Source: Bixzunavirus cane17 (Duplodnaviria > Heunggongvirae > Uroviricota > Caudoviricetes). From it: a DNA stretch of 64,000 nucleotides. Location: IMG/VR virus record IMGVR_UViG_2974759174_000001, one strand, 5' to 3'. The notes below the pieces were generated by a model. It did no database searches. It saw only the letters and a list, made by a program, of their open reading frames with translations, and was not told the DNA's origin. A program made the position numbers and the translations under genes. Shown in pieces: positions 23,617-53,359 of the stretch; position 1 is the stretch's first letter; every line of letters starts with the position of its first letter.

Positions 23617-23657
23617 GGCCCTCCCGGTCCCTCGAATAGGTAGAGGGATGGGAGGGC
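23617..23657 (+). promoter_or_regulatory. stem-loop with conserved loop TCGAATAGGTAGAG (hairpin family B) upstream of GTG 23662
   Basis: GGCCCTCCCGGTCCCTC / GAGGGATGGGAGGGC imperfect stem. Confidence 0.45.
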
Positions 23658-23661
23658 TGTT

Positions 23662-23988
23662 GTGAGCAACGACGACGACAAGGTCAAGGTCTGGGTGCAC
23701 CTGTACGGGGGCGAGCAGGACGGCTGGCGGCGCCAGATCGAGCTCGGCGACACCGACCCGGACAGGGCTCCGCAGATGTTCTACGTGTGCCGGATCAAGG
23801 ATGAGTCCAAGATTGCCGAGGCCGGGTCACAGACCGCCCGGATGGCCCTGCAGAACAAGCTCTCCCAGCTCGCCTACGAGCTCTACGACGACGTCGCGAT
23901 CTCGTGCGCCGGAGGCCGTTCCGAGCGCGAGTTGCGCTATCGCCGCCTGGCGTCCGCCGACAAGGTCGTGCCCAACGCAATGGGATAG
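23662..23988 (+). CDS. hypothetical protein (108 aa)
   Basis: GTG start after hairpin. Confidence 0.6.
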   Translation: MSNDDDKVKVWVHLYGGEQDGWRRQIELGDTDPDRAPQMFYVCRIKDESKIAEAGSQTARMALQNKLSQLAYELYDDVAISCAGGRSERELRYRRLASADKVVPNAMG

Positions 23989-23997
23989 GGTCATTTT

Positions 23998-24020
23998 CCT
24001 CCTCTAACAGGTAGAGGAGG
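23998..24020 (+). promoter_or_regulatory. RBS-sequestering hairpin CCTCCTCTA-acagg-TAGAGGAGG (family B)
   Basis: perfect 9-bp stem; the 3' arm is the Shine-Dalgarno GAGGAGG for ATG 24027. Confidence 0.55.
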
Positions 24021-24026
24021 TCACCC

Positions 24027-24737
24027 ATGTTCCGTTCCGCATCGGTCGTCGAGGCCGAGGCCGCTCAGCGCAAGCTGGACAAGCTGCGCGAGGATTGGCA
24101 ACGCACGGCCAACACCTGGTTTGACGGCTCTGCCGAATCGGTGGAGCGCCGCATCGCCCAGATCGATCGGGTGATCGCGTTCGCATCGCGCACCGCCCAG
24201 CGTTCCGGTGACCCGGCCAAGTTCTGCCTGGCCGCGCTGCCCACGCTCAAGGCCAACCGGGAAGAACTCGTCGAGCTGCACCGCCAGCTGGTCGGCGGGT
24301 CCTGGTACACCGGCCCGGAGGACCACGGGTTCCCCGTGAATCCGCACGACTATCCCAGCATGCGTGAGTGGATGGACGCGTCCAACATGCGCAGCTATAT
24401 CCAGGACGCGCACGAGAAGCACCCGCAAGAGGGCTGGGACCGCGCCAAGGGCGACTATGCCGTCGACGAGAGCTGGATGGACCCGCACGGGCCCATGCTC
24501 AACCACGCCGCGCTCGACTTCATCGCCGAGCAGGACACCACCGACCCCGGAGAGCTCAGAATCCGGGCTCAGCGCCTCGTGGCGGCACGAACTTCCACAT
24601 GGTCACGTGAGGCATCGGCCCGGGCAGTCCAGGCCTTTGTGAAGGCCGTGGAGGACAACAGTCCCCGACCGGTTCGGACAGCATCGGCTCCAGTACGGCA
24701 GCTGCCCGACTTCGAGGACCACCTCATGTTCAGTTGA
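24027..24737 (+). CDS. hypothetical protein (236 aa)
   Basis: ORF after hairpin-RBS. Confidence 0.75.
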   Translation: MFRSASVVEAEAAQRKLDKLREDWQRTANTWFDGSAESVERRIAQIDRVIAFASRTAQRSGDPAKFCLAALPTLKANREELVELHRQLVGGSWYTGPEDHGFPVNPHDYPSMREWMDASNMRSYIQDAHEKHPQEGWDRAKGDYAVDESWMDPHGPMLNHAALDFIAEQDTTDPGELRIRAQRLVAARTSTWSREASARAVQAFVKAVEDNSPRPVRTASAPVRQLPDFEDHLMFS

Positions 24738-24750
24738 GCCAGAGAGGCTG

Positions 24751-24960
24751 GTGGGTCCGATGATGTCACCAGAAGAAAAGTGGGAGATCAAGCAACTGGT
24801 CCACCAGGAGCTTGCCGCCATCGAGTACGAGATTGCGCACAACGCGGGGAGCTATCGGTACCTGTGTGCGCTGGGCGGAGTCACGTTTTTTAGTCACACC
24901 CCCGTCGGGACGGTAGTGCGCAGCATTCCGCCCCGAACGCACTTGCCGGTCAATGTGTGA
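24751..24960 (+). CDS. hypothetical protein (69 aa)
   Basis: GAGAGG upstream of GTG. Confidence 0.5.
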   Translation: MGPMMSPEEKWEIKQLVHQELAAIEYEIAHNAGSYRYLCALGGVTFFSHTPVGTVVRSIPPRTHLPVNV

Positions 24961-24997
24961 CCGAGCTAAGTGAGTGTCGTGATAAGGAGAAACCGTA

Positions 24998-25294
24998 GTG
25001 GCGAGCTGGCGCAATCCGCTCCGAGACATCAGGCCGCTGACCGTCACGATGTTTCTGATCCTTGGCATGTGGGCGACCTTCCAGGCTCTGGACCCCACGC
25101 CTCCGCCCGTGCTGGACCAGATTCTCATCGCCATCTTCGGCGCCTGGATTGCTCGTGAGACGGTTGATCGGAAAAACGAGCGGACAAAGGGCGACGAGCC
25201 GAAAGATGATACCGCTGCTCCCGCGTCAATAAGTAATGATGGGGAGAAGGGCAAAGTCGGGGACAAGCAGACCGAAGAGGATGAGACGGGCTGA
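24998..25294 (+). CDS. membrane protein (98 aa) with charged C-terminus, holin-like
   Basis: RBS TAAGGAGAAA; TM helix PLTVTMFLILGMWATF and IAIFGAWIA. Confidence 0.6.
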   Translation: MASWRNPLRDIRPLTVTMFLILGMWATFQALDPTPPPVLDQILIAIFGAWIARETVDRKNERTKGDEPKDDTAAPASISNDGEKGKVGDKQTEEDETG

Positions 25295-25924: not shown

Positions 25925-25926
25925 CG

Positions 25927-27441
25927 ATGTGCTACGGCTGCCAGCAGGTCCTCGCTGACTTGCAGGACTACTACGAGGGCGCACGGATCACCGCCGCCGA
26001 GTGCCAGGTCCCGCCGGAGTGGCAGCGCTACTACGACCACATGAGCGGTCAGCCGGATCGCTCGCAGGCCGCGCACCTGATGATGCCGACCGAGCTGGTG
26101 CACCACTACCGCGAGTACGACCGTGACCCTGCCGACCCGAACTACCAGGTGCTCAAGAAGGTCATCCGGGAGCACGGCAATCAGATCCGTCAGCCGCTGG
26201 TAATCAACGCCGACGACACCCACGGCGTGCTAACCGAGGGCAATCACCGCGCGGCCATCGCGCGCGAGCTGGGCATCACTCATCTGCCAGTGCGGGTCCA
26301 GTACGGCCCCAAAGCCCAGGCCAACGAGGGCACCCCGGTGCCGCACCATCCTGCATTCAAGCAGTGGCTGGACGCTAACATCGGAGGACTGCAGCGTCAG
26401 GCTGGGGCCAATGGCGATATGCCTGCGGGCATCAGGATTCAGCAATTGCCCCGGATTCAACGCAAGCAACAGATTGAACCGTGGCTCGGGTTGAAAGAGA
26501 ATGGCGTTCACGCCTTGCATCCGGACGGAACTGAGTTGGGTCACTTGACCTGGTGGGAGCCGGATGGCGAAATTGCCGGAGTTGAAGTTCATCCCGATTA
26601 CCGTCGACGCGGCATTGCCGACGCGCTGTTAGACTACGCACGGTCAAACTTCAATCCGGAGGTGCATCATTCAGAGACTCTGACAGCTGATGGCAGAGCT
26701 TGGTCCAAGCAACGCCAGGCCGGTGTCGACCCGGAGATGACGTCGCTGGTGCACTTCACCAAGCCGCACATCCGCGACAAGATCATCCAGGAGCAGCGGT
26801 TCCAGCAGCATCCGCAGGGTGCTCACAACGACCATTCGTTCTTCACCACCTATGACAACCGTCACGACCCCGACTTCCGGGGCAAGTGGGGATACGGCGA
26901 TGTCGGCGTTGTCGTGGACGTCCCGTCGCACCTGGTGAAGCCGGACGGAGACTGGCCGCATCCCAAGTCGTTCATGGTGCATCGGGACGACTTGGCCGGA
27001 CTGCCGATCCGTTCGCTGGACCGACACGCCGCCGAGGACCGGTGGGACCACCCTGCCGAGGGTGAGGGCTTTGACGCCTGGCGCAACCGGCTGTGGGACG
27101 GTCTGGCCGAGGGTAAGACCTTCCACCCGAACGCCCCGGGCAGCCACTACCGGGCGATGAGCGACGAGGAGTTCAAGGCCGGTATTGCCAACGGCGGCTT
27201 TCACACCCTGCCGGGCAACAAGAGCCTGTTCGTCACCGACGACCCCGATCGGCTGGCCGGTGGCGCCTACGGCGGCAAGGGTGGCGGACACATCGTCGAG
27301 TTCGCCCCGCAGGAGACTCACGACGTCTCCAGCTACTACGTCAACGGCCTCAACGAGAAGGGCGTCAGTCACATCCCGCTCGACGCGGTGCGCCGGGTCT
27401 GGAGCTGGAACGGATCGGACCACCATCCGGCCCCCTACTGA
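25927..27441 (+). CDS. ParB-like nuclease (sulfiredoxin-fold) and GNAT acetyltransferase fusion protein with a 230-aa C-terminal domain of unknown function (504 aa)
   Basis: ParBc motif QPLVINADDTHGVLTEGNHRAAIARELGITHLPV; GNAT motif A VEVHPDYRRRGIADALLDYA. Confidence 0.8.
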   Translation: MCYGCQQVLADLQDYYEGARITAAECQVPPEWQRYYDHMSGQPDRSQAAHLMMPTELVHHYREYDRDPADPNYQVLKKVIREHGNQIRQPLVINADDTHGVLTEGNHRAAIARELGITHLPVRVQYGPKAQANEGTPVPHHPAFKQWLDANIGGLQRQAGANGDMPAGIRIQQLPRIQRKQQIEPWLGLKENGVHALHPDGTELGHLTWWEPDGEIAGVEVHPDYRRRGIADALLDYARSNFNPEVHHSETLTADGRAWSKQRQAGVDPEMTSLVHFTKPHIRDKIIQEQRFQQHPQGAHNDHSFFTTYDNRHDPDFRGKWGYGDVGVVVDVPSHLVKPDGDWPHPKSFMVHRDDLAGLPIRSLDRHAAEDRWDHPAEGEGFDAWRNRLWDGLAEGKTFHPNAPGSHYRAMSDEEFKAGIANGGFHTLPGNKSLFVTDDPDRLAGGAYGGKGGGHIVEFAPQETHDVSSYYVNGLNEKGVSHIPLDAVRRVWSWNGSDHHPAPY

Positions 27442-27553
27442 TCGGCCCGATAGGCGCGACTCGCAGATACCCGCAGACAAGCTCGACAAAGCCTGATACA
27501 GTCATCCCTATGTTCGCTTTCCGCCTGAGTTTGTCCTCATCGCTACTTAGCTA

Positions 27554-27574: not shown

Positions 27575-27580
27575 GTCTAA

Positions 27581-27663: not shown

Positions 27664-27689
27664 CGTAGTACATCCATGGAGGATGAAGC

Positions 27690-28504: not shown

Positions 28505-28514
28505 ACCTGTAGAA
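28505..28514 (+). promoter_or_regulatory. copy 1 of conserved motif tCAACCTGTAG, 68 bp upstream of the giant acidic-protein gene
   Basis: identical 10-mer also at 36596 and 39576. Confidence 0.35.
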
Positions 28515-28572
28515 AACCTACCGACCTGTTCTAACCAGTAGGAGCAACACCTTCTATCTGGCAGGAGCAGGG

Positions 28573-37003: not shown

Positions 37004-37073
37004 GACCCTCCTAACCACTCGCTGAGCGGCTCGAATAGATGTCCACTTCTCCATCTATTTGAGAGGACGACCT

Positions 37074-37229
37074 CATGCTCGTTCTTGGCATCATCCTGCT
37101 GCTCCTGGGCTACCTGCTCGGAGTTCACGTCCTGTTCATCATCGGCGCCATCCTTGCGGCTGTCGGCGCCCTGCTGCTGGTTCTCGGCGGTCTGGGACGC
37201 CCGGTCGGCGGTCGCCGGTACTGGTACTA
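37074..37229 (+). CDS. small membrane protein (51 aa, two TM helices)
   Basis: RBS GAGAGGA; MLVLGIILLLLGYLLGVHVLFIIGAILAAVGALLLVLGGL; the track's alternative frame is Cys/Ser-rich off-frame. Confidence 0.45.
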
Positions 37230-39030: not shown

Positions 39031-39585
39031 GTGGAGTTCGTTGCCGACGACCGAATCCCGCCGGGCTATCACATCCCATCATCGTGGATGTTGCGTTCTG
39101 CCGACGCCGAACAGGCCAAGCAGACCGGCGGCATGGTCGCGCTCTATCCCTCGACGGAGTCGGCGCAGAAGATCGTGGTGCCCGGCGGGGAACCGATCGA
39201 CGACCTGCACCTGACGGTCACCTACTTCGGGCAGGACGTCACCGGGCAGGACCCGACCGAGCTGGTCGACTTCCTGTACTACCTGGCCCCGCAGTTCCCG
39301 CCGATCGAGGCGAACATCTTCGGCACGGCGGTGTTCAACTCGACCGGCGAGGACCCCTGCATCGTCTACCTGGTCGGCAACTCTCCGCACCTGACGCCGC
39401 TCTTCCAGCAACTCAAGCGGTTCGCGCTGGAACACTACCCCGGCGCTGCCGAGCAGCACGATCCGTGGATTCCGCACATCACTGCGGCCTACGGCTCAGG
39501 GGCGATGATCGACTACGAGGGCCCGGTGGTCTTCGACCGCATCGGCATCCGCTGGCCTGGCGCTGATCAGGACTTCAACCTGTAG
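39031..39585 (+). CDS. 2H-phosphoesterase superfamily protein (LigT-like 2'-5' RNA ligase / cyclic phosphodiesterase), 184 aa
   Basis: two H-x-T/S-x motifs HLTVTY and HITAAY at the expected spacing; RBS AAAGGAGGG. Confidence 0.7.
   Translation: MEFVADDRIPPGYHIPSSWMLRSADAEQAKQTGGMVALYPSTESAQKIVVPGGEPIDDLHLTVTYFGQDVTGQDPTELVDFLYYLAPQFPPIEANIFGTAVFNSTGEDPCIVYLVGNSPHLTPLFQQLKRFALEHYPGAAEQHDPWIPHITAAYGSGAMIDYEGPVVFDRIGIRWPGADQDFNL
39576..39585 (+). promoter_or_regulatory. copy 3 of motif tCAACCTGTAG (overlaps the LigT stop codon)
   Basis: identical 10-mer. Confidence 0.35.
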
Positions 39586-39595
39586 TAGGCCCAAG

Positions 39596-39631
39596 TTCCT
39601 CCTCGAATGGATAGGAGCCTTCGAGGAGGAA
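39596..39631 (+). promoter_or_regulatory. RBS-sequestering hairpin TTCCTCCTCGAA-tggataggagcc-TTCGAGGAGGAA (family B) upstream of ATG 39634
   Basis: 12-bp perfect stem; the 3' arm is the SD. Confidence 0.5.
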
Positions 39632-39633
39632 CA

Positions 39634-43437: not shown

Positions 43438-43472
43438 CCACGACGACCGCCTAGAAGAAGAGAGGAGGTGTC

Positions 43473-46400
43473 GTGGCTACCAAGCACGTACTGCACGCCG
43501 AACGCCGGGATGTGACGACCCGGCCTACGGACAAGGCGATCCGGCGCAAGCTGAAGCACGCCGAGACTCTCGGCGACTTCAAGATGCGCCCGGGTTACCT
43601 CTACACCGTGGTCAGGGCCATCTCGGCGCGAGTTAACCAGAACTACGATGGTTGGCCATCAGACGAGCTAAAGAAGGCCGCGCACACCTTCATCGGAAAG
43701 CCGGTCTTCGTCAACCACGAGAACTACGACCCCAAGAAGGCCCGGGGAGTTGTTGTCGCGGCTCGTTACGTCGAGAACGGCAATGACAAGTTCATCGAGG
43801 TCATTCAGGAAATCGATGCCAAGCGTTTCCCAAAGCTGGCCCACGAGATCCGCACCGGCGGACTTGACTCTGTGTCGATGGGCGCCGAGGCCGGATTCAC
43901 GATCTGCTCGTACTGCGGCAACAAGGCGACCGATGTCCCCGAGATGTGCGACCACGTCCTGTACCACAAGGGCGAGCGTTTGCCACGGCACAACCGCAAG
44001 ACGGGCAAGGTCGAGGACGTTCTCGTCTACGAGTCCTGCCACAAGATCAGCTTCTTCGAGTTGAGCTACGTCTTCGACCCCGCCGACGAGACCGCTGTGG
44101 CTTCGCGCGTGCTGGTGGCCAACAACAAGACCGCCGGTGACTGCCCGCCCGGCCAGGACTGCACGGTCGGCGGCAATCCCGAGGACCAGATCACTCCGGA
44201 CTCGGCCAACAATCCGGTCAACGGCGGCAGCAACGACAGCAGCAGCACCGGCGGCGGTGCTGGAGCGAGCGCGGCCACCACGGTTTCTGGCGGCGAATTG
44301 GGCGAGCCTGGCGAGTCGGTGTCCGCCGGAGGAGGAGCCGGGGCCGACGGCATCATGGACGCCTCGCGCCCGCTCTATGACCAGCTCAAGACGATCGACC
44401 CGAACGCCGATATCGGCGGCTACCGCCCTGGCGGCGACGGCTACGACGAGCACAACAACGGCGCGCTCGACTACATGACCACCGATCCGGCAGTGGCCGA
44501 GCAGGTCAAGCAGAAGGCGTTCGAGAACGGCGCTCCGTACGTCATCTGGCAGCAGCAGCTGCACTACCCCGACGGCTCCACCAAAGCGATGGAGGACCGA
44601 GGTAGTCCGACGCAGAACCACATGGACCACGTGCACACGGGCCCGCTGACCGGACCGAAGGCTGCCCGGATCGAGCACACGGTTCTGGTTACCGCCGGGT
44701 TCGTCGATCCGGCTGTCGACTGCACCGTGTGCCGTCAGGCCCGGGTGGCCACCAAGTGCCACTACTGCGCCGGAGACGCCGAGGAGGGCTTCTCCTCGTG
44801 TGCCGCGCATCGGCCCATGGAAGAGAAGAAGTTCAGGGCCGCACAGCGAGAGGAGGCCGCGATGACATTCGAGGCTAGCGTGATTCGTGAGTTCCTCGGT
44901 GGCCCGCCACCCCCGGCCCGTCCGATGACCGGCATCGAGCACCAGCCTGGTCTCAATCCCGAGGACTATGTCGTGCCGTACAAGGGGCGCGGCTACCAGC
45001 CCGGCATGCCGGTAGACGTCTACCGCAACTTGCACTCGGAGAAGACCGGCACCGGTCTGTGGTCAGTCCGGCACAAGGGTCAGGTGGTCGGTCACGCCGA
45101 CTTCATCCACATGCCGCAGGGCAAGTTCTTCGTGGGCGAGGGCGGCAACGCCAAGGTTCAGGAGACCGGCCAGAAGAACGTGCACGCCGGTGCGCGTGGC
45201 GTGCTGGGCCCGGTCCCGCACGACCACGACCCGTCGCAGTACGTCGGCATCACCTACAACCCCAAGGCCGGAGACACCAGCTTCTACCAGCGCGAGACCA
45301 AGGAGCCGGTCTGGGAGGCCGATCATGTGCACCTGGGTCCCGACGGCAAGGCCTACACCCTCGGTCCGCGCAGCGGCATGGCCAGCGCCGACCAGAAGGT
45401 GTTCGAGGCCATGGTCCTGCAGGCCTACGGCGAGACCGAGGCGCCCACCCGTGTGGACACCCTGCGTGAAGAGGGCTCGGCGCCCGAGGACGACAACAAC
45501 GACTTCTACCACTACGTCGAGCCGCCCAAGGAGCTGCAGACCCCGGATCTGTCCGAGGCCGCACAGATCGACCGTCAGCAGGCCGAGAACCAGGGCGACA
45601 CGATGGACGTCGACGGCGACCCCGGACCGCACAGCGTGATGAACCAGGAGCCCGTCCCGGGCGCCGGTGGGGCCCCGCAGCAGCAGTTCATGACGCTGCA
45701 GATCCCGATCCCGCCACAGGGCCAGGCGCCCGGCGTGCCGATGCAGTCGTTCGCGCCGCCCGCGCCCGCCCCGGCGCCACCCATGCCTCCCCAGCAGATC
45801 GCCGCGTCGACGCTGGACTTCTTCGACCGGTACTACGGGCGCCGCGTGGCCAACTGGCTCGACGCCATTGAGGCCGGACGCGAGTTCACCGCCGAGGAGG
45901 CCTCGGACTACAGGCGGGAAGCAATGAAGCTGTCGACCCTGCAAAAAGCACCCTCAGCTTCAACAACAAGTAGGAACCCCATGAAAGGAACCGCCAACAT
46001 GGCACGCAGCAATCTCGCCTCGCGCGGCAAGGTGGTGACGGCTGGTCGTCGGCAGCACTTCGCCGAGGGTCCGTTGGTGGACTCGGGCGACCAGAGCCGT
46101 AACGACCAGGGCGAGCAGGAAGAGGCCTTCATCTCGACCACGCCGCCCGAGGAGTCCGTGGTGGCTCCCACCGACGACACCCCCAACATCTCGAACACCG
46201 AGCAGAACCTCGTCGCCCGCGTGAAGCGAGGCCGTGCCCAGCTCATGGCCGACGCGCAGAAGCTGGCTCAGCTCCAGGCTCAGCGCCAGCGCCGCATGGC
46301 CAACGAGGCCGGTGGCCCGGTGGCTACCGAGGTCAACCCGACGGTGAACTCGGGCCCCGGCGCCGAGGAGCTCACCGGCGATGACTTCGAGTCGGCCAAC

Positions 46401-47195
46401 CCCAACGACGGTGTCGTCGAGACTCAGCCCAAGGATGCGAGCCTGCATGCGTTCCGCACCTTCGACTCGTGGCTGAAGCGCAAGACGGGCAAGTCGGCGC
46501 GGTACCACACCAGCGCGACCATTCGCCGTGCGGCGGACGACTTCAGCCGTCAGTCGAACGTCTCGGTCCAGGCCCTGTTCCCGGCCCTGGGAATCGTGCT
46601 GCGAGAAGCACGAAAGAACGAAAAGGCAGCAGCCAACACCAAGGGAGCCAACATGCGCAAGCGTGCCGACGAGAAGCTGGAAGTCGCAGCTCCGGATGGA
46701 CGTGTTGACGTCGAGGCTCCGACCCGAGGAACGACTGACGCCGAGGCGCAGGCCTCGCAGTTCGACCTCAACGACTTCGGCAACAACGCCGGAGACGACA
46801 TCGCCGATCCGGATCTGAGCACCGATCAGAACTGGGCCCCCGGTGAGGCCAAGAAGTCCAGCAAGGTCAAGACGGCAGGTGGCGTTCTCGCCTTCCGTCT
46901 GGCGGAAGCCATGATCGCTGCTGGCATCGAGCCGAACACCGTCGAGCGGAAGTATGCGCTGGCGGCAGAGTTCGAAAACATGAATCGCGGTGCGGTCCAG
47001 GACCGTATCGCACTGTGCGAGCGCTTCGTGCCGGTTCTGGCCGCAGCTCGCCGACAGGTCGCCAGCGGTAGTACTCGCGGGGCCGCACTGAAGTCCCCCA
47101 TCCCTTCGGGCCTGGTGCAGGGCGCACAGCGCACCGCCGGACGCGCAGTGGTGGCGGCAAACGACCCCCGTAACGACGCTTCGCTCTTCATCTAA
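43473..47195 (+). CDS. giant fusion protein (1240 aa): N-terminal prohead-protease-like domain (S78/U35-like), M15-family zinc peptidase domain, zinc ribbons, Pro-rich and coiled-coil C-terminus
   Basis: VNHENYDPKKARGVVV ... GGLDSVSMGAEAGF (His/Ser protease-like); GGYRPGGDGYDEHNNGALDYMTTD ... DHVHTG (M15 SxHxxGxAxD ... DHxH); GTG with GAGGAGG RBS. Confidence 0.8.
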   Translation: MATKHVLHAERRDVTTRPTDKAIRRKLKHAETLGDFKMRPGYLYTVVRAISARVNQNYDGWPSDELKKAAHTFIGKPVFVNHENYDPKKARGVVVAARYVENGNDKFIEVIQEIDAKRFPKLAHEIRTGGLDSVSMGAEAGFTICSYCGNKATDVPEMCDHVLYHKGERLPRHNRKTGKVEDVLVYESCHKISFFELSYVFDPADETAVASRVLVANNKTAGDCPPGQDCTVGGNPEDQITPDSANNPVNGGSNDSSSTGGGAGASAATTVSGGELGEPGESVSAGGGAGADGIMDASRPLYDQLKTIDPNADIGGYRPGGDGYDEHNNGALDYMTTDPAVAEQVKQKAFENGAPYVIWQQQLHYPDGSTKAMEDRGSPTQNHMDHVHTGPLTGPKAARIEHTVLVTAGFVDPAVDCTVCRQARVATKCHYCAGDAEEGFSSCAAHRPMEEKKFRAAQREEAAMTFEASVIREFLGGPPPPARPMTGIEHQPGLNPEDYVVPYKGRGYQPGMPVDVYRNLHSEKTGTGLWSVRHKGQVVGHADFIHMPQGKFFVGEGGNAKVQETGQKNVHAGARGVLGPVPHDHDPSQYVGITYNPKAGDTSFYQRETKEPVWEADHVHLGPDGKAYTLGPRSGMASADQKVFEAMVLQAYGETEAPTRVDTLREEGSAPEDDNNDFYHYVEPPKELQTPDLSEAAQIDRQQAENQGDTMDVDGDPGPHSVMNQEPVPGAGGAPQQQFMTLQIPIPPQGQAPGVPMQSFAPPAPAPAPPMPPQQIAASTLDFFDRYYGRRVANWLDAIEAGREFTAEEASDYRREAMKLSTLQKAPSASTTSRNPMKGTANMARSNLASRGKVVTAGRRQHFAEGPLVDSGDQSRNDQGEQEEAFISTTPPEESVVAPTDDTPNISNTEQNLVARVKRGRAQLMADAQKLAQLQAQRQRRMANEAGGPVATEVNPTVNSGPGAEELTGDDFESANPNDGVVETQPKDASLHAFRTFDSWLKRKTGKSARYHTSATIRRAADDFSRQSNVSVQALFPALGIVLREARKNEKAAANTKGANMRKRADEKLEVAAPDGRVDVEAPTRGTTDAEAQASQFDLNDFGNNAGDDIADPDLSTDQNWAPGEAKKSSKVKTAGGVLAFRLAEAMIAAGIEPNTVERKYALAAEFENMNRGAVQDRIALCERFVPVLAAARRQVASGSTRGAALKSPIPSGLVQGAQRTAGRAVVAANDPRNDASLFI

Positions 47196-48820: not shown

Positions 48821-48850
48821 AGACCCCCTCCTTCGGGAGGGGGTCTTTTC
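48821..48850 (+). terminator. rho-independent terminator AGACCCCCTCC-ttcg-GGAGGGGGTCT plus TTTTC
   Basis: perfect 11-bp stem with U-tract. Confidence 0.8.
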
Positions 48851-48993: not shown

Positions 48994-49932
48994 GTGAGTG
49001 TATGCGCCAACCCCGAGTGCGGCAAAGAGTTCGAGCAGCCCAACAAGTACCGCACCACCAAGACATGCTCCAAGGAGTGCCGATACGCGGTCTCGGCCAG
49101 CACCACCAAGGCCTCCAGTGGCCGGTGGGAGACCAAGGTCTGCCCATGTGGAGTCGAGTTCCAGAGCGCCGTCAATAAGCCCAAGACGTATCACGACTGG
49201 GACTGCATGATGAAGCATCGGCAGGAAGACGCTCGGGCGTCTCGGACGTGCGAGAATCCTGAATGCGGCAAGGAGTTCACTTACTTCAAGCGCCAGAATC
49301 AGCGGACCTGCTCGCCGGAGTGCCGCAACAAAGTCACCGCCATGAAGCGTGAGAACAACTATCCCGAGTGCCAGACGTGCGGTGTCTCCACCGGCTCCTA
49401 CAACCGGATCTACTGCGACGAGCACCGCCCTAATCGTCCGGGCCGCAAGCCCGCACCTCGGATCACTGCGACCTGCCTGTGCTGTGGTGAGGAGTTCACT
49501 CGCCCGGAGAACTACCCCGGCAAGATGAAGTACTGCTCGAACGCCTGCAGTCATCGTCAGGTGAAGAAAGTCCGGGACAAGTTCATCGCCGACCTCCCCG
49601 AGGGTGCGATCGTCTTCCACAGCATGTGGGAGGTGCGCTTCGTCGCTGCCTGTGAGCGGTTCGACATCCCCTGGCGCTCCTACGACGGTCCCGACATCGA
49701 GACCTCTCAAGGCGTCTACCGTCCTGACTTCATCATCGGCAAGCCGGGCGAGGAGCGCGTGGTCGACGTCAAGGGATGGCTGCGGCCTGAGTCCGAGGTC
49801 AAGTGCCGCGAGGCCGGGGTGCATCTGGTGACCAAGCAGGAGCTGCTGCGGCTGGAGTCCGGTGACAGCTTGGACGCGCATCGCGCATTGCTATGGAACT
49901 CGGGAATGAATGCCCATACCGGTCTGTTATGA
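48994..49932 (+). CDS. zinc-ribbon-repeat protein with C-terminal PD-(D/E)XK nuclease-like domain (313 aa)
   Basis: four repeats of C.NPECGKEF ... RTCS.ECR; C-terminal PDFIIGKPGEERVVDVKGW (D ... E.K); GTG 48994 with AGGGAG RBS. Confidence 0.7.
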   Translation: MSVCANPECGKEFEQPNKYRTTKTCSKECRYAVSASTTKASSGRWETKVCPCGVEFQSAVNKPKTYHDWDCMMKHRQEDARASRTCENPECGKEFTYFKRQNQRTCSPECRNKVTAMKRENNYPECQTCGVSTGSYNRIYCDEHRPNRPGRKPAPRITATCLCCGEEFTRPENYPGKMKYCSNACSHRQVKKVRDKFIADLPEGAIVFHSMWEVRFVAACERFDIPWRSYDGPDIETSQGVYRPDFIIGKPGEERVVDVKGWLRPESEVKCREAGVHLVTKQELLRLESGDSLDAHRALLWNSGMNAHTGLL

Positions 49933-49971
49933 TGAGTACACGACACGCACTCACACACGAAAGGCAGACCG
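49902..49971 (+). promoter_or_regulatory. conserved promoter-leader element (GGGAATGAATGCCC, -10 TATGAT, CACTCACACACGAAAGG leader), partly inside the upstream coding sequence
   Basis: family member. Confidence 0.5.
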
Positions 49972-50604: not shown

Positions 50605-50615
50605 CCCACCAGCCC

Positions 50616-50645
50616 AGAGGCCCCTTCTCCGGAGGGGGTCTCTTC
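50616..50645 (+). terminator. hairpin AGAGGCCCC-ttctccgga-GGGGGTCTCT then TTCG
   Basis: 9-bp stem. Confidence 0.55.
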
Positions 50646-50686
50646 GCATGTCCGAGGTCCATGAATAGGTGAGGAGGACTTTCCCC

Positions 50687-52300
50687 ATGACTTTGCCTGG
50701 ACCGCCGCTGACCCCGCCGGGCGCGGACTCCCCCGCATGGCCTCCGGTCATTCGCGGCAACCCGGACCACGTCCCGCCGGAGAGCATCCCCACCCACAAG
50801 GAGATTCCGATCTCGGCTGTCGACGGCCTCCAGGAGGCCCTGGAGAGCCTGCAGGGCGGCACGGACAGCGGCGTGCAGCCGCGAGTTCTGTACGGACCGC
50901 GCGTTGTTCTCGATGGCGATTCGATTACTCTTGGCTCGACTACTACAGGAACCTGGAATCAAGGTCGCGGCGGCTGGGGGATGGAGCTGGCCCGACTGTC
51001 CGGCGGACGCATCGACATCGTCTACAACGCAGCCATCGGCGGCACGGGCATCGACACGCGGCTGGAGAACTTCGACAGCAAAGTCGCACCACATAACCCG
51101 CAGACGGTCATCTTGTCCAACGGGACAAACGATGTGGCCAGCATGCCTCTGACCGAATATCTGACCAAGCTGACGACCTACTATCAGAAGGCGCGGGCCA
51201 TCGGTGCCCACCTGGTGTTAGGCGGCATCTATCCGAAGAACACGAATGCCTCGACCATCGCTCGGTGGAATGTCGCCCTGCAGGAGTGGGCTGCATCGCG
51301 GGGCGTGGTCGTGATTCCGTTCTGGAGTCTGGCAGACCCGGCCACCGGAGCCTGGCCATCCGGATGGAGTTCGGACGGCACGCACCCTCTGCGAGAGACG
51401 CCCGCGTACGCCGCTCTCGGGCGGCTGGCCTGGGACACTCTGGCCTCCTCGTTCACCGAGCCGGTGGCGCCGACGGCCTTCTATGCGGGCGAGGGCCTCT
51501 ACACGAACTTCTTCACCGACCTCGCGGCGACGATCACCGGCACGGCCACGATCTCGGTGATCGCGACGACGACAGGGTCCCTGGCGCCCGGAGAGTATTC
51601 GTACCGGGTGGTTCCGAGGAACTACTGGGGCAAGAACAACAACTTCGACGACGACACCATCACGCTTTCAGAAACAGGCGGGGTGTCGCTCACGGTGACC
51701 GGATCGGGCACGTACACACGCCGCGCGGTGTACCGCAAGGGGCCTGGCGACACGACGTTCCGATACATCGGTCAGATCACCGCCACTGGCACGCAGACGT
51801 TCACCGACGGCGGTCTGACGGCAGGGTACGACTGGGAGGACGGAGACAGCTCCCGCATTCCCAACGGACTGGCCAACGGCGCCACTCAGGACCTCCGCAC
51901 CCTGGCGTACGGTCCGCCGGTCCGACCCGGCAACGGCGAGGTCCGGGGAAACATTCTGCGACTCACACGGCACGAGGGATCAGGCGTCTCGCACATCGAC
52001 CGATTCACCGTCACCGGCCTGACGGCAGGGCAGAAGATCACTGTCTCCTGCAAGTGTCGAGGAGCGAACACCACAAACGCGACAGAGCGCATTCAGGTGT
52101 ACTTCCGCGACCCCGCCGATGCCACCAACGTCGAACTGGTCCCCCTGATCTTTCATCGACTCTCGGCGGACTGGGGCCTGGTGTTCAAGACCATGGTCGT
52201 TCCCGCCGGATCGGACCGTCTTCGAGTTTCGTTCGAGGGGGACGCGACGTCGCCGTACATCGACGTCGCCGAGCTGTATGTAGCCCAGACCGCTGTCTAA
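50687..52300 (+). CDS. tail-fibre-like protein with SGNH/GDSL hydrolase (esterase) domain (537 aa)
   Basis: GDSL blocks VVLDGDSITLG, ILSNGTNDVAS, DGTHP; N-terminal MTLPGPPLTPPGADSPAWPPV module shared with the next gene; RBS GAGGAGGA. Confidence 0.8.
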   Translation: MTLPGPPLTPPGADSPAWPPVIRGNPDHVPPESIPTHKEIPISAVDGLQEALESLQGGTDSGVQPRVLYGPRVVLDGDSITLGSTTTGTWNQGRGGWGMELARLSGGRIDIVYNAAIGGTGIDTRLENFDSKVAPHNPQTVILSNGTNDVASMPLTEYLTKLTTYYQKARAIGAHLVLGGIYPKNTNASTIARWNVALQEWAASRGVVVIPFWSLADPATGAWPSGWSSDGTHPLRETPAYAALGRLAWDTLASSFTEPVAPTAFYAGEGLYTNFFTDLAATITGTATISVIATTTGSLAPGEYSYRVVPRNYWGKNNNFDDDTITLSETGGVSLTVTGSGTYTRRAVYRKGPGDTTFRYIGQITATGTQTFTDGGLTAGYDWEDGDSSRIPNGLANGATQDLRTLAYGPPVRPGNGEVRGNILRLTRHEGSGVSHIDRFTVTGLTAGQKITVSCKCRGANTTNATERIQVYFRDPADATNVELVPLIFHRLSADWGLVFKTMVVPAGSDRLRVSFEGDATSPYIDVAELYVAQTAV

Positions 52301-52317
52301 GCGAAGGAAACGTCTCC

Positions 52318-52857
52318 ATGACCATGCCTGGACCCCCGCACACCCCGCCCGGCGCCGATTCTCCGGCCTGGCCTCCGGTCGTCTCTGCCAACGGTTACGT
52401 GCCGCCCGAGAGCATTCCGACCCGCACCACGGTGACCTCGGTCGAGGGTCGGTCCGGTGATGTCGACGTCACCATGGACGACATCGAGGGTCTGCAGGAA
52501 GCGCTGGACGAAGCGAGCGCCCCGGCGACGTGGGACACCCTGTCCGGCAAGCCTGCCGTGATCGCTGCTGGGGCCACCCAGGCCGCTGCTCGGTCGGCCA
52601 TCGGCGCGGGTACTTCCAGCCTGGCCCTGGGCACCACGGCCTCCACCGCACTGGCGGGCAACACCGCGCTGGTGCCGCCCACGCGCACCGTCAACGGCAA
52701 GGCCCTCAGTGCCAACGTGACGCTCGGTGGTGGTGATGTGGCACTGACTGGCTACGCCGCCGGGACCGCCGAACCGGTGTCCGCCACCGACACGGTCAAC
52801 GCGGCCATCGCCAAGCTGGAGGCGAGGATCGCCGCCCTGGAGGCCGGACAGCCGTAA
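52318..52857 (+). CDS. tail-fibre-like protein (179 aa) sharing the N-terminal anchor module, Ala/Gly-rich with C-terminal coiled coil
   Basis: MTMPGPPHTPPGADSPAWPPV ... VPPESIPT paralogous to the 50687 gene N-terminus. Confidence 0.7.
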   Translation: MTMPGPPHTPPGADSPAWPPVVSANGYVPPESIPTRTTVTSVEGRSGDVDVTMDDIEGLQEALDEASAPATWDTLSGKPAVIAAGATQAAARSAIGAGTSSLALGTTASTALAGNTALVPPTRTVNGKALSANVTLGGGDVALTGYAAGTAEPVSATDTVNAAIAKLEARIAALEAGQP

Positions 52858-52859
52858 GT

Positions 52860-52926
52860 GGGAATGAATCCCCATATCCCTGTGTTATACTAGGTGCACA
52901 TTCACCCACACACAGAGGAGTCCGGC
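52860..52926 (+). promoter_or_regulatory. conserved promoter-leader element (GGGAATGAATCCCC, TATACT, CACCCACACACAGAGGAG)
   Basis: near-consensus copy. Confidence 0.55.
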
Positions 52927-53145
52927 ATGATCATCGACGATCTCAACGGAGAACTGGTCGACATCGAGGACGGCGGCGTCTCGAACGAGAAGCTCGTCGA
53001 AATGGAGCGCGAGTACTTCTCGCACCTGATCGATCCGCACACCGCGCGCTACTGGGGCAAGGACTACCTGCGCCACTTGGGCCAGGACTACGACTCGATC
53101 GTCGAGGAGATCGGCTACCGTCGACGCGACCGGGAATGGGTGTGA
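52927..53145 (+). CDS. hypothetical protein (72 aa)
   Basis: RBS AGAGGAG. Confidence 0.6.
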   Translation: MIIDDLNGELVDIEDGGVSNEKLVEMEREYFSHLIDPHTARYWGKDYLRHLGQDYDSIVEEIGYRRRDREWV

Positions 53146-53160
53146 GGAGGTGACCATGAG

Positions 53161-53325
53161 ATGGAGCGCTACCTGTTCGCCGGAAGCGAGTTGACCCGCG
53201 ACGAACTGGAGAAGGCTTTGGCTCCAGAGCTGGACGAACTTAACGCCGCCCAGGGCACCAAGATCGGCTTCGACGAATACCTGGCCGCAGCTCTGAACAC
53301 CGGCACCATCACCGAGATCCTGTAA
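53161..53325 (+). CDS. possible small protein (54 aa)
   Basis: GAGGAGG upstream; not in track. Confidence 0.4.
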   Translation: MERYLFAGSELTRDELEKALAPELDELNAAQGTKIGFDEYLAAALNTGTITEIL

Positions 53326-53337
53326 GGCGGGGCGGGA

Positions 53338-53359
53338 CCTCCTCTAATAGGTGAGGAGG
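53338..53359 (+). promoter_or_regulatory. RBS-sequestering hairpin CCTCCTCTA-atagg-TGAGGAGG (family B) upstream of ATG 53369
   Basis: stem plus conserved loop. Confidence 0.55.

What the first reader, a model, noticed from the sequence alone, without database searches (positions are those of the whole stretch)
23617..53359. Second regulatory family: RBS-sequestering hairpins with a conserved loop (yAAyAGGTrG)
Four gene starts (23662, 24027, 39634, 53369) are directly preceded by a stem-loop. Their stems differ in sequence but their loops are conserved: TCGAATAGGTAGAG, TCTAACAGGTAGAGG, TCGAATGGATAGGAG and TCTAATAGGTGAGG. In three of them the 3' arm of the stem is the Shine-Dalgarno sequence GAGGAGG. 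A conserved loop on variable stems suggests an RNA element recognised through its loop, for example a translational repressor or activator site or an antiterminator target. The three clear copies precede late or large genes, namely the 236-aa, 1267-aa and 627-aa proteins.
Basis: seen in the sequence. Interest (0 to 1): 0.7.

Follow-up and report, generated by a model that had tools for sequence, protein, structure and literature searches.

The report
Late promoter-like motif inside RBS-hiding hairpins
In this large mycobacteriophage (Cane17, Bxz1 group), many late genes are preceded by an RNA hairpin that hides the ribosome-binding site, and its conserved "loop" is most likely half of a phage-specific promoter, so that only late transcripts starting inside the hairpin are translated, as with phage T4 lysozyme.

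Summary
The window is bases 1-64000 of Mycobacterium phage Cane17 (cluster C1, Bixzunavirus). All four hairpins are real (MFE z -3.6 to -6.8) and sequester the Shine-Dalgarno sequence. The family is larger than reported: about 10 sites in the window and about 15 in the genome, all on the + strand, nearly all 19-43 nt before late (virion or lysis) genes.

The "loop" ([GT]AAT-N-G-R-T) is the downstream half of a bipartite motif. A CCTG(T/C) box sits exactly 26 nt upstream, whatever the stem architecture. Motif copies also occur without a hairpin.

Orthologous genes carry the same motif and spacing on unrelated stems. This holds in Phabba (Myrnavirus), Gordonia phage Pupper, a divergent C1 allele and metagenomic relatives (39-50% protein identity). 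Arm-swap permutation: 0 of 5000.

Best explanation (confidence 0.55): a phage-specific late promoter lies between an anti-SD arm and the SD arm. Read-through transcripts fold and stay silent. Late transcripts lack the 5' arm and are translated. This is the T4 gene e/soc/49/I-TevI logic. No transcription start site has been mapped.

A conserved protein with a sigma region 4 domain (gp208) is a candidate factor.

The parts
23608..23664 (+). gp65 element. Box CCTGCAC 23608-23614. 5' arm 23612-23633 (outer GGCCCTCCC, inner CCCTC). Motif GAATAGGTA 23634-23642. 3' arm 23643-23664, including the SD GGGAGGG at 23650-23656. GTG start at 23662.
   Evidence: z -6.8; PWM 28.2 bits
23988..24029 (+). gp66 element. 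Stem 23998-24006 pairs with 24012-24020 (CCTCCTCTA/TAGAGGAGG), with an outer stem 23988-23991/24023-24026. Motif TAACAGGTA 24005-24013. SD GAGGAGG 24014-24020. ATG at 24027. There is no CCTG box here (AATGGGA), although the Phabba orthologue has one.
   Evidence: z -3.6; 11.6 bits
28506..28575 (+). gp76 (1140 aa) element. Box CCTGTAG 28506-28512. Anti-SD segment 28525-28531 pairs with the SD GGAGCAGG at 28565-28571. Motif TAACCAGTA 28532-28540, here partly inside an inner stem. ATG at 28573.
   Evidence: 27.2 bits; z -3.2
37007..37077 (+). gp81 weak copy. Degenerate box CCTCCTA 37007-37013. Motif GAATAGATG 37033-37041, which pairs with the downstream CATCTATT. The SD is not sequestered by the spacer. 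ATG at 37075. The Phabba orthologue keeps GAATAGGTGT with no hairpin.
   Evidence: z -1.9; 10.1 bits
39579..39636 (+). gp85 (1267 aa, LysM) element. Box CCTGTAG 39579-39585; its TAG is the stop codon of the RNA ligase gene. 5' arm 39595-39607. Motif GAATGGATA 39605-39613. 3' arm 39620-39632, with the SD GAGGAGG at 39623-39629. ATG at 39634.
   Evidence: z -6.1; 31.0 bits
43428..43475 (+). gp86 (1240 aa) weaker copy. Box CCTGTGG 43428-43434. Variant motif GAAGAAGAG 43454-43462. Enclosing hairpin 43439-43452 / 43463-43475 covers the SD and the GTG at 43473. Conserved in Phabba.
   Evidence: (17.6 bits)
45938..46001 (+). Copy inside the gp86 coding sequence. Box CCTGCAA 45938-45944. Motif CAACAAGTA 45964-45972. 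This is followed by the SD-like GAAAGGAA and an in-frame ATG at 45999, a possible nested 398-aa product. Conserved in Phabba. Membership is tentative.
   Evidence: (18.1 bits)
50663..50689 (+). gp91 (esterase/lipase) motif-only copy. GAATAGGTG 50663-50671 is followed directly by the SD GAGGAGG. There is no box and no stable hairpin (z +1.2). It is preceded by a GC-rich terminator-like hairpin at 50616-50643. ATG at 50687.
   Evidence: (11.8 bits)
53319..53371 (+). gp95 (627 aa) element. Box CCTGTAA 53319-53325; its TAA is the stop codon of gp94. 5' arm 53328-53344. Motif TAATAGGTG 53345-53353. SD arm GAGGAGG 53353-53359, with an outer arm reaching 53368. ATG at 53369. An early-type promoter-like sequence lies upstream, at gp93.
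   Evidence: z -5.6; 32.1 bits
58328..58387 (+). gp104 (164 aa) element. Box CCTGCCG 58328-58334. Double stem with 5' arm 58330-58353 (GGCCCCTTC, CCACTC). Motif GAATTAATG 58354-58362. 3' arm 58362-58385, including the SD AAGGAGGGG. GTG at 58385. In 10 other C1 genomes the only change is at motif position +4 (T to C).
   Evidence: z -7.1; 26.5 bits
61263..61334 (+). gp108 (208 aa) element. Box CCTGTGG 61263-61269. Anti-SD segment GGATTC 61283-61288 pairs with the SD GGAGTC at 61323-61328. Motif GAACCAGTG 61289-61297. GTG at 61332.
   Evidence: 26.8 bits; z -2.7

Best explanation
The element has two layers.

DNA layer (inferred). There is a phage-specific, probably late, bipartite promoter: (A/C)CCTG(T/C) - 17 to 19 nt - (C)TC[G/T]AAT-N-G-R-T. 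The two blocks sit at the centre-to-centre distance of a -35/-10 pair. With G of GAAT as position 0, the predicted transcription start is about +9 to +12.

RNA layer (shown by folding and comparison). The promoter spacer just 5' of the GAAT block encodes an anti-Shine-Dalgarno arm (typically CCTCCTC). The sequence 3' of the block is the Shine-Dalgarno arm.

How it would work. Transcripts that enter from upstream contain both arms. Such transcripts could come from early promoters, tRNA clusters or upstream late operons. They fold, the ribosome-binding site is hidden, and the late gene stays silent. Transcripts that start at the embedded promoter lack the 5' arm, so the site is open and the gene is translated. 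The conserved 'loop' is conserved because it is a promoter element. The stems vary because only their complementarity matters.

A conserved phage protein with a sigma region 4 domain (gp208) is a candidate reader of the CCTG box (inference only).

Shown: the hairpins, the SD sequestration, the bipartite motif and its spacing, and their conservation. Inferred: promoter activity, position of the start site, timing, and the factor.

For: 2. Fixed spacing. In 22 anchored sites, T at -24 is found in 22/22 and CCTG at -26..-23 in 17-19/22. A+1 is 21/22, A+2 is 22/22 and T+7 is 22/22. The pattern CCTG-N22-motif gives 7 hits on the + strand and 0 on the - strand. Every other spacing from 12 to 33 gives 0-3. 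Phabba gives 8/0 at N22. CCTG at exactly -26 in 18 of 27 sites has a binomial p of about 3e-31.

3. Promoter-like distribution. A PWM scan of the 160-kb genome gives 17 hits on +, 0 on -, and a mean of about 1.8 in shuffles. Fifteen of the 17 lie 19-43 nt before a start. They are spread along the virion and lysis genes: gp76, gp85, gp86, gp95, sheath, baseplate, gp163, gp235 and endolysin gp239.

4. The motif works without the hairpin. gp91, gp131 and Phabba gp239 have the motif and no hairpin. gp91 follows a terminator-like hairpin, where read-through would not be a problem.

5. The anti-SD arm always lies in the spacer just 5' of the motif. This holds even when 25-35 nt, including an inner hairpin, separate it from the SD (gp76, gp108, gp163, gp65).

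6. Conservation with replaced stems at orthologous genes. This is seen in Phabba, Pupper, Dandelion, and metagenome loci L008, L026, L027, L030 and L031. In the arm-swap test, own arms give -20.5 kcal/mol against -13.7 +/- 0.7 for swapped arms, 0 of 5000.

7. The hairpin is an RNA-level, sense-strand feature. The sense fold is more stable in 15/23 sites (p 0.025), and 33 of 375 pairs are G.U.

8. Early-type promoter-like sequences sit just upstream of the hairpin-bearing gp95 and gp104.

9. The CCTGTAG box also lies within sigmaA-type promoters, for example Pupper TTGACAaaaCCTGTAGtcgtcCTATAGC. It is therefore a DNA-level element.

11. Precedent: T4 genes e, soc, 49 and I-TevI (PMC3014915).
Against: - No transcript 5' end is known. 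Promoter activity and late timing rest on sequence logic and gene identity alone. I found no RNA-seq or TSS study of cluster C phages in the searchable literature.
- In the simple hairpins (gp66, gp95, gp239, and the hairpin-less gp131) the SD abuts the motif. The start site must therefore fall within about 3 nt of the first SD base. That would leave a 9-15-nt leader with the SD at the very 5' end. If the start were 7 nt after the invariant T+7, the SD would be lost.
- The motif lacks the TANNNT signature of actinobacterial sigmaA -10 elements.
- No sigma region 2-like protein was found among about 35 proteins scanned.
- The box is missing or degenerate at some sites that keep the hairpin and the TAAT motif (gp66, L026, L030).
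- Rhodococcus phage Finch has a gp208 homologue but shows no such motif in its late region.
- Invariance of G+5, R+6 and T+7 is not explained by a hexamer ending at +3.
Confidence: 0.55

Rival explanations
1. RNA operator. The hairpin is present in the functional late mRNA, and a phage- or host-encoded factor binds the loop motif, possibly together with the single-stranded CCUG upstream. The factor either melts the stem to activate translation, like Mu Com on mom mRNA, or locks it to repress translation, like T4 gp32, gp43 or RegA.
For: - There is a conserved purine-rich AAU..GU string between complementary arms at most sites, and the SD is in the 3' arm.
- The hairpin plus TAAT is retained even where the box is degenerate (gp66, L026, L030).
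- Sense-strand bias shows the RNA structure matters.
Against: - The 26-nt linear distance to the box is rigid although the stems vary from 7 to about 21 bp and are single or double. In folded RNA that would put the two motifs in very different spatial relations.
- Loop size varies from 4 to 22 nt, and part of the motif is often paired.
- Copies without any hairpin exist.
- No covariation supports a CCUGU:AUAGG pseudoknot (my inspection).
- No candidate RNA-binding protein was found other than Ro60/TROVE.
- There is no Rfam match.
Confidence: 0.17
2. The CCTGTAG box is itself the core (-10-like) promoter element and transcription starts about 7 nt downstream of it, near -13. The hairpin is then the 5' leader of the transcript. 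It could stabilise the mRNA or delay its translation. The GAAT motif would act in the RNA or as a downstream promoter or pause element.
For: - CCTGTAG occurs alone 37-64 nt before several other starts (36599, 105265, 129653, 135045, 153232).
- For double-stem sites, a start near -13 would also remove the outer 5' arm.
Against: - This does not explain why the GAAT motif keeps a fixed distance from the box.
- It does not explain why GAAT occurs without the box (gp66, gp91, gp131).
- In simple hairpins both arms would be in the transcript, so the SD would be permanently hidden unless a further factor exists.
- In early promoters the box lies in the spacer upstream of a sigmaA-type -10 rather than replacing it.
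Confidence: 0.1
3. Translational coupling. The hairpin blocks independent initiation, and the downstream gene is translated only when a ribosome terminating at the upstream stop codon unwinds the 5' arm. That stop codon is often the TAG, TAA or TGA inside the box.
For: The upstream stop codon lies within CCTG-TAG/TAA/TGA at gp85, gp95, gp239, Pupper g166, L008, L027 and L031. That places it at a fixed 20-22 nt before the motif.
Against: - Many sites have non-stop triplets at that position (CAC, CCG, TCA, TCC, CTA, TGC, TTG).
- Some have the stop elsewhere (gp65, Dandelion), or have no upstream ORF nearby (gp76 lies after a 1.1-kb tRNA region; gp163 lies after tRNAs).
- A ribosome stopped at -22..-20 would barely reach a 5' arm at -8..-2.
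- Coupling does not explain the conserved AAT..T.
Confidence: 0.08
4. The hairpins act as U-tract-less intrinsic terminators or insulators that end upstream transcription units. Alternatively, they act as DNA hairpins or cruciforms recognised in extruded form, like phage N4 virion RNA polymerase promoters.
For: - The hairpins are stable and GC-rich and lie between genes.
- A conserved loop on variable stems resembles N4 hairpin promoters (my recollection, not tested).
Against: - None is followed by a T-run. The terminator scan lists none of them, although it finds true terminators nearby.
- The 3' arm is systematically the SD, which a terminator does not need.
- G.U pairs and the sense-over-antisense stability bias argue against a DNA structure.
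- The hairpin is dispensable at some motif copies.
- Stem and loop sizes are far more variable than in N4 promoters.
- No phage RNA polymerase was detected among the proteins scanned.
Confidence: 0.05

Closest known systems
Phage T4 genes e (lysozyme), soc, 49 and I-TevI: a late promoter embedded in an RBS-sequestering hairpin (PMC3014915, section 29; McPheeters et al. 1986, PMC311593)
   Same: - The SD or start codon is locked in a helix in longer, earlier transcripts.
- A late promoter lies in the DNA that encodes the 5' strand or loop, so late transcripts lack the 5' arm and are translated.
- It is used on a lysis gene (Cane17 endolysin gp239) and on structural genes.
- The arrangement is conserved across relatives while the stems differ.
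   Different: - The promoter-like motif is unrelated to T4's. It is CCTG(T/C)-N-[GT]AATNGRT, bipartite, whereas T4 uses TATAAATA with no -35 element. No gp55 or gp33 homologue was found.
- It is deployed regulon-wide, at 7 or more hairpin sites among about 15 motif sites per genome, against four genes in T4.
- The host is a high-GC actinobacterium.
- Here the start site, the timing and the read-through are inferred, not measured.
Sigma-70-family bipartite promoters read by phage-directed specificity factors: SPO1 gp28 and gp33/34, T4 MotA/AsiA middle promoters, ECF-type sigma factors (my general knowledge)
   Same: - Two conserved blocks lie at a rigid distance of about 24 bp centre to centre.
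- The sites are strand-specific and intergenic, and sit just upstream of gene starts.
- A phage-encoded protein with a sigma region 4 fold is conserved in the same phages.
   Different: - There is no TANNNT and no ECF-type AAC/CGT signature.
- No sigma region 2 partner was identified.
- gp208 has only the region 4-like domain, with extra N- and C-terminal parts.
- No biochemical evidence exists.
Start-associated sequences (SAS/ESAS) of Cluster K mycobacteriophages (PMC3203893)
   Same: - Short asymmetric repeats lie immediately before start codons of a subset of genes in a mycobacteriophage. They contain or abut the SD and are sometimes flanked by inverted repeats.
- The upstream stop codon is sometimes inside the repeat.
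- The gp85 loop TGGATAGGAGCCT matches the SAS consensus GGGATAGGAGCCC at 11 of 13 positions.
   Different: - SAS occupy the RBS position itself (3-7 bp from the start) and are restricted to non-structural genes.
- ESAS inverted repeats have a conserved sequence, and their mismatches do not support RNA pairing.
- Here the motif lies upstream of the SD and the genes are structural or lytic. The arms have no conserved sequence but are complementary within each site. An upstream box lies at a fixed distance.
Protein-bound translational operator hairpins: MS2 coat protein, T4 gp32/gp43/RegA, Mu Com (my general knowledge; RegA in PMC3014915)
   Same: A hairpin at the translation initiation region with a conserved unpaired sequence.
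   Different: - Loop size and presentation are not constant.
- Copies without a hairpin exist.
- The upstream box lies at a fixed linear, not spatial, distance.
- No cognate RNA-binding protein was identified.

Membership tests
T4-type promoter-in-hairpin translational gating (genes e, soc, 49, I-TevI) | The SD and/or start codon is sequestered in an RNA helix in transcripts that come from upstream. | tested here: met
   - MFE hairpins have z-scores of -3.6 to -7.1.
- SD-zone pairing probability is 0.88-1.0 at gp65, gp85, gp95, gp104 and gp163. Motif genes are the top 3 of 217 genes.
- The same is seen in Phabba, Pupper, Dandelion and metagenome orthologues.
T4-type promoter-in-hairpin translational gating (genes e, soc, 49, I-TevI) | A promoter is placed so that its transcripts start between the 5' arm and the SD. 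| tested here: inconclusive
   A bipartite promoter-like motif sits exactly between the arms at all hairpin sites. The geometry predicts a start at about +9 to +12. In simple hairpins that is the first bases of the SD arm. No 5' ends are available.
T4-type promoter-in-hairpin translational gating (genes e, soc, 49, I-TevI) | Earlier transcription reads through into the gated gene. | not testable with these tools
   Only indirect evidence exists. Early-type promoter-like sequences lie before gp93 (leading into gp95) and gp103 (leading into gp104). tRNA genes lie before gp163. A terminator-like hairpin lies before the hairpin-less gp91.
T4-type promoter-in-hairpin translational gating (genes e, soc, 49, I-TevI) | A T4 late promoter TATAAATA read by gp55/gp33 (homology to the T4 system). 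| tested here: not met
   The motif is [GT]AATNGRT plus a CCTG box. No gp55- or gp33-like or sigma region 2 hit appeared in the proteins scanned. The element is analogous to the T4 system, not homologous.
Sigma-70-family -35/-10 promoter | Two conserved blocks at fixed spacing, strand-specific, upstream of genes. | tested here: met
   - The spacing scan peaks only at N22: 7/0 in Cane17 and 8/0 in Phabba.
- PWM hits are 17 on + and 0 on -, and 15 of 17 lie 19-43 nt before a start.
Sigma-70-family -35/-10 promoter | A -10 element of TANNNT type (housekeeping sigma). | tested here: not met
   No register of the motif gives T-A-N-N-N-T (alignment). The sigma-70 consensus scan finds nothing at these sites.
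Sigma-70-family -35/-10 promoter | A dedicated sigma or specificity factor encoded by the phage. | tested here: inconclusive
   - gp208 has a weak Sigma70_r4_2 hit (E 7e-5).
- The Finch homologue scores 30.8 bits, above the 25.7 cut-off.
- Only 60-70 residues align, there is no region 2, and nothing links the protein to the box.
Cluster K SAS/ESAS | A 13-bp GGGATAGGAGCCC 3-7 bp before the start of non-structural genes, in multiple copies. | tested here: not met
   There is one 11/13 match (39608-39620), 13 nt before the start of a structural-region gene. The other copies do not match (PMC3203893).
Described cis-regulatory RNA families (Rfam 15) | A match to a curated covariance model at its gathering score. 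| tested here: not met
   Only three tRNAs were found in the window.
Protein-bound RNA operator hairpin | A conserved loop presented on a stem with constant geometry, and present at every functional copy. | tested here: not met
   Loops range from 4 to 22 nt. The motif is partly paired at gp66, gp76, gp85, L026 and L027. Copies without a hairpin occur at gp91, gp131 and Phabba gp239.
N4-type DNA hairpin promoters | A short 5-7 bp stem with a 3-nt loop, read by a phage-encoded RNA polymerase. | not tested
   Stem and loop sizes do not fit. No RNA polymerase domain was seen in the large proteins gp76, gp85 and gp86. The proteome was not searched exhaustively.

The most novel reading that the evidence does not exclude
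The hairpins are present in the mature late mRNAs and form a regulon-wide translational switch. A phage-encoded factor would recognise the AAU-N-G-R-U string, and perhaps the CCUG 26 nt upstream, on about ten late mRNAs. It would open the SD-sequestering stems at the right time. That would be a dedicated late translational activator system in an actinobacteriophage, with no described counterpart of this breadth.
Probability: 0.15. Interest if true: 0.75.

Novelty: new variant of a known kind. Interest (0 to 1): 0.6.

Why it matters
Late promoters of mycobacteriophages are largely uncharacterised. [quoted passage not shown]

If the reading is right, this work gives three things:
- A concrete, testable consensus for the late promoters of the Bxz1/I3 group (more than 200 sequenced phages) and of its Myrna-like and Gordonia relatives.
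- A map of about 15 late transcription units.
- A candidate specificity factor, gp208.

It would also show that the T4 lysozyme trick has arisen independently in a high-GC actinobacteriophage. In T4, a late promoter is placed inside an RBS-hiding hairpin so that early read-through RNA stays silent. Here the same arrangement is used across the late regulon rather than on a few genes.

Practically, the element is a compact promoter-plus-translational-gate module for mycobacterial genetics. It also warns annotators that 'conserved loops on variable stems' can be DNA signals.

Tried and rejected
- **Plain sigmaA promoter.** No TANNNT register exists in the motif, and the consensus scan is silent at these sites.
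- **Pseudoknot between upstream CCUGU and loop AUAGG.** Five pairs are possible in the canonical copies. Variants (GAATCTGT, GAATTAAT, GAATGGAT) do not covary with the box.
- **Loop as a second, 'standby' SD.** AGGUGA does pair with the 16S 3' end, but this fails for the CTGT, TAAT and GGAT variants, and the best-conserved part (AAT) is not SD-like.
- **Known RNA family.** Rfam finds only tRNAs.
- **Terminators.** There are no T-tracts, and none is listed by the scan.
- **Rhodococcus phage Finch as an outgroup.** Its late region (1-50 kb) has no PWM hit and no such hairpins. It gave no information on mechanism.
- **IMG/VR search with gp95.** It returned only 3 loci. The metagenome scan was more useful.
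- **Transcript ends in public assemblies.** A look-up of gp104 returned only whole-genome DNA contigs. These were used instead for polymorphism.
- **Search for a sigma region 2 or gp55-like protein.** Pfam, PHROGs and PDB sequence searches on about 35 proteins found nothing beyond the region 4-like domain of gp208.
- **Literature.** Searches for cluster C, Bxz1 or I3 transcription data found nothing relevant.
- **Column-by-column covariation.** It could not be counted because orthologous hairpins differ in architecture. An arm-swap permutation was used instead.

Full report
**Identity of the window.** Megablast places the window at 100% identity on Mycobacterium phage Cane17 (NC_054716.1, 160,330 bp; Bixzunavirus, cluster C1, Bxz1/I3-like myovirus). 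The window equals bases 1-64000 of that record. I loaded the whole annotated genome.

The four starts named in the finding are:
- gp65 (108 aa)
- gp66 (236 aa)
- gp85 (1267 aa, LysM domain)
- gp95 (627 aa)

All lie in or at the edge of the virion-gene block.

**Checking the observation.** The four stem-loops are there.

| Site | MFE (kcal/mol) | z-score |
|---|---|---|
| gp65 | -39.1 | -6.8 |
| gp66 | -19.1 | -3.6 |
| gp85 | -30.0 | -6.1 |
| gp95 | -30.7 | -5.6 |

The loop pattern TCKAAYRGRTRG occurs three times against 0.16 expected. The 3' arm is the Shine-Dalgarno sequence in all four. It is GAGGAGG in three and GGGAGGG in the first.

Two details differ from the description. In copy 2 the loop is only ACAGG. 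In copy 3, TCGAA is part of a 13-bp stem.

**The family is larger.** Scanning the whole genome and reading all upstream regions turned up further clear hairpin copies:
- gp104 (window 58354; loop GAAUUAAU, double stem, z -7.1)
- gp163 (genome 96631; loop GAAUCUGUA)
- the endolysin gp239 (genome 145821; CCTCCTC-GAATAGGT-GAGGAGG)

The same string plus SD occurs with no 5' arm and no stable fold before gp91 (50663) and the baseplate gene gp131.

**The key new observation is a bipartite motif.** I anchored 22 sites from three phages on the G of GAAT (position 0). A second conserved block then appears exactly 26 nt upstream:
- T at -24 in 22/22 sites
- CCTG at -26..-23 in 17-19/22
- A+1 in 21/22, A+2 in 22/22, T+3 in 19/22 and T+7 in 22/22

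As an internal control I varied the spacing. CCTG-N(x)-[GTC]AA[TC]N[GT][GA]T gives 7 hits on the + strand and none on the - strand at x=22. All other x from 12 to 33 give 0-3. The 50-kb Phabba segment gives 8/0 at x=22. CCTG at exactly -26 in 18 of 27 sites that were chosen without reference to it has a binomial p of about 3e-31.

A PWM scan of Cane17 gives 17 hits on the + strand and 0 on the - strand. Shuffled genomes give a mean of about 1.8. Fifteen of the 17 lie 19-43 nt upstream of a start codon. The genes are gp65, gp66, gp76, gp81, gp85, gp86, gp91, gp95, gp104, gp108, the tail sheath, a baseplate protein, gp163 (tail protein with lysin activity), gp235 (virion protein) and the endolysin.

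This is the distribution expected of late promoters scattered through late genes. It is distinct from the sigmaA-like family (GGAATGA...GTTATACT plus a CA-rich leader) that precedes the many small early genes.

**Architecture.** In every hairpin site the arm complementary to the SD lies in the spacer immediately 5' of the GAAT block (about -9..-1, often CCTCCTC). The SD arm lies 3' of the block. The two may be adjacent (gp66, gp95, gp239) or separated by 25-35 nt that can hold an inner hairpin (gp65, gp76, gp104, gp108, gp163).

The linear distance from box to motif never changes, although the stems range from 7 to about 21 pairs. A rigid linear distance combined with variable folded geometry points to recognition on DNA, not on folded RNA.

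**The hairpin itself is an RNA-level feature.**
- The SD-zone pairing probability of motif genes ranks 1, 2 and 3 among 217 genes (Mann-Whitney p 6e-4).
- It falls from about 1.0 to 0.2-0.5 if the RNA is taken to start at +9.
- Sense-strand folds are more stable than antisense folds in 15 of 23 sites (mean -2.0 kcal/mol, p 0.025). The stems contain 33 G.U pairs of 375.

**Relatives.** Orthologous late genes keep the motif, the spacing and an SD-sequestering hairpin, but on unrelated stems.
- Phabba (Myrnavirus): orthologues of gp66, gp85, gp95 and gp104, plus gp76, gp86, gp108 and the sheath at lower PWM scores.
- Gordonia phage Pupper (capsid protein 83% identical): g82, g93, g101 and g166, plus g97.
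- The C1 phage Dandelion, which carries a divergent gp95 allele (50% aa identity): CCTGTAG-N19-TAATAGATGAAGGAGG on a different stem.
- Metagenomic relatives of gp95 at 39-50% identity (L008, L026, L027, L030, L031). All have a significant hairpin in at least the last four (z -3.6 to -6.5), with TAAT/AAAT after the 5' arm and the SD in the 3' arm. Three (L008, L027 and L031) keep CCTGTAA or CCTGTAG at -26; L026 and L030 do not.

The architectures differ, so column-wise covariation cannot be counted. I used an arm-swap permutation instead. Each site's own 5' and 3' segments pair at a mean of -20.5 kcal/mol, against -13.7 +/- 0.7 for swapped partners, 0 of 5000 permutations.

Across 10 further C1 genomes the gp104 element is invariant except at the degenerate motif position +4. 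The structure is under selection.

Rhodococcus phage Finch, which is more distant, shows neither the motif nor the hairpins in its late region.

**Mechanism.** The combination has a well-documented precedent: a DNA-type bipartite signal, with an RNA hairpin whose 5' arm lies upstream of the signal's downstream half and whose 3' arm is the SD. In phage T4, genes e (lysozyme), soc, 49 and I-TevI are transcribed early as parts of longer RNAs in which the RBS is locked in a helix. Late promoters lie in the DNA that encodes the 5' strand, so late transcripts lack that strand and are translated (PMC3014915, section 29).

I propose the same logic here. The two blocks have the centre-to-centre distance of a -35/-10 pair: CCTGTA, 18 nt, TCGAAT. 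That puts the predicted start at about +9 to +12. Late mRNAs would then begin at or just before the SD.

The context fits. gp95 and gp104 each follow one or two small genes that carry an early-type promoter-like sequence (gp93, gp103). gp163 follows a tRNA cluster. gp91 has the motif but no hairpin, and is preceded by a GC-rich terminator-like hairpin (50616-50643, -23.7 kcal/mol).

The CCTGTAG box is also found in the spacer of sigmaA-type promoters (window 3454 and 6291; Pupper TTGACAaaaCCTGTAGtcgtcCTATAGC). This supports the view that it is a protein-binding DNA site.

Homologues are present in C1, Myrna, Pupper-like and Rhodococcus phages. The Finch homologue is annotated as a sigma factor and passes the Pfam cut-off.

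Only the region 4-like domain is recognisable. No region 2-like partner was found in about 35 proteins scanned. The link between gp208 and the box is therefore only a lead.

**Weak points.**
- No 5' ends are known, and I found no transcriptomic study of cluster C phages.
- In the simple hairpins the SD abuts the motif. The start must fall in a narrow window or the SD would be lost.
- The motif is unlike any sigmaA -10 element.
- The box is absent from a minority of sites that keep the hairpin and TAAT.

**Rivals.** These gaps keep several rivals alive:
- an RNA operator bound through the loop (0.17)
- the box as the true core promoter, with the hairpin as a 5' leader (0.10)
- translational coupling through the stop codon that often lies in the box (0.08)
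- terminator or DNA-hairpin roles (0.05)

**Comparison with known systems and novelty.** The element works like the T4 e/soc/49/I-TevI arrangement, but it is not homologous to it. The motif differs and there is no gp55 or gp33.

It is not a Cluster K SAS/ESAS, even though the gp85 loop matches that consensus at 11 of 13 positions (PMC3203893). It matches no Rfam family.

I rate it a new variant of a known kind. The regulatory logic is known. What is new is an undescribed bipartite promoter-like consensus, used across the late regulon of a large actinobacteriophage group and conserved into Gordonia phages and uncultured relatives.

Interest is 0.6. The central step, transcription starting inside the hairpin, remains an inference.

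Noticed in passing
window 3440-3513, 9310-9375, 9630-9699, 10930-11012, 11450-11532, 12265-12326, 12990-13052, 15890-15962, 22430-22465, 49900-49971, 52860-52926, 58130-58203: A second, larger repeat family precedes small genes. It consists of GGAATGA, 16-17 nt, GTTATACT/TATAGT (a sigmaA-like -10), then a CA-rich leader (CACTCACACA) and GGAG. Three copies (before gp90, gp93 and gp103) are embedded in the late region.
   Followed up: partly
window 3454, 6291, 36599; genome 105265, 129653, 135045, 152273, 153232; Pupper (L005/L009/L010) about 20 sites, e.g. record position 98099: The CCTGTAG box also occurs without the GAAT motif. In some places it lies in the spacer of sigmaA-type promoters, 5-6 nt before TATAGT. 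In others it stands alone, 37-64 nt before a start. It may be an operator or activator site shared by several promoter classes.
   Followed up: partly
window 45938-46001 (inside gp86, 43473-47195): A box-plus-motif copy lies inside the gp86 coding sequence. It is followed by the SD-like GAAAGGAA and an in-frame ATG at 45999, which could give a nested 398-aa C-terminal product. It is conserved in Phabba (L012 28230). gp86 lies just upstream of the capsid gene, so a nested scaffold- or protease-type arrangement is conceivable.
   Followed up: partly
window 32842-36537: The annotated portal gene encodes 1231 aa in Cane17, against about 836-864 aa in Phabba and Pupper. tblastn aligns only 509 residues. 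This suggests a large insertion, possibly an intein or an inserted domain.
   Followed up: no
window 39608-39620: The loop of the gp85 hairpin, TGGATAGGAGCCT, matches the Cluster K start-associated sequence GGGATAGGAGCCC at 11 of 13 positions. It lies 13 nt from the start and is a single copy. The match is probably coincidental, since it overlaps the GAATGGATAGGAG motif variant.
   Followed up: partly
genome 124781-125650 (L003 24781-25650), outside the window: gp208 and its homologues form a conserved family with a sigma region 4-like domain. They occur in Myrna, Pupper, Finch (annotated as a sigma factor) and many metagenomic large phages. They lie next to the recombination genes. There is also a shorter form of 180-200 aa.
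   Followed up: partly
window 48821-48846 and 50616-50643: A strong canonical terminator (11-bp GC stem followed by TTTCTT) lies right after the major capsid gene. A GC-rich hairpin without a full T-tract lies between gp90 and gp91.
   Followed up: partly
Phabba L012 31180-31224 and 35465-35508: Two near-identical sequences, TTCTAG-N3-GCTAGAATAGAATC-ATG, have a perfect TANNNT hexamer (TAGAAT) 6 nt before the ATG. This is the layout of leaderless mRNAs in mycobacteria.
   Followed up: no
genome 132447-134099 with flanking gaps of 484 and 360 nt (outside the window): The annotated 'RNA-binding protein' is a Ro60/TROVE plus vWA protein, flanked by long non-coding stretches that may encode Y-RNA-like RNAs. 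It is unrelated to the hairpins as far as I can see.
   Followed up: no
window 25927-27441: gp71 (504 aa, annotated hypothetical) has a GNAT acetyltransferase domain (Pfam Acetyltransf_1, 26 bits, above the cut-off).
   Followed up: no
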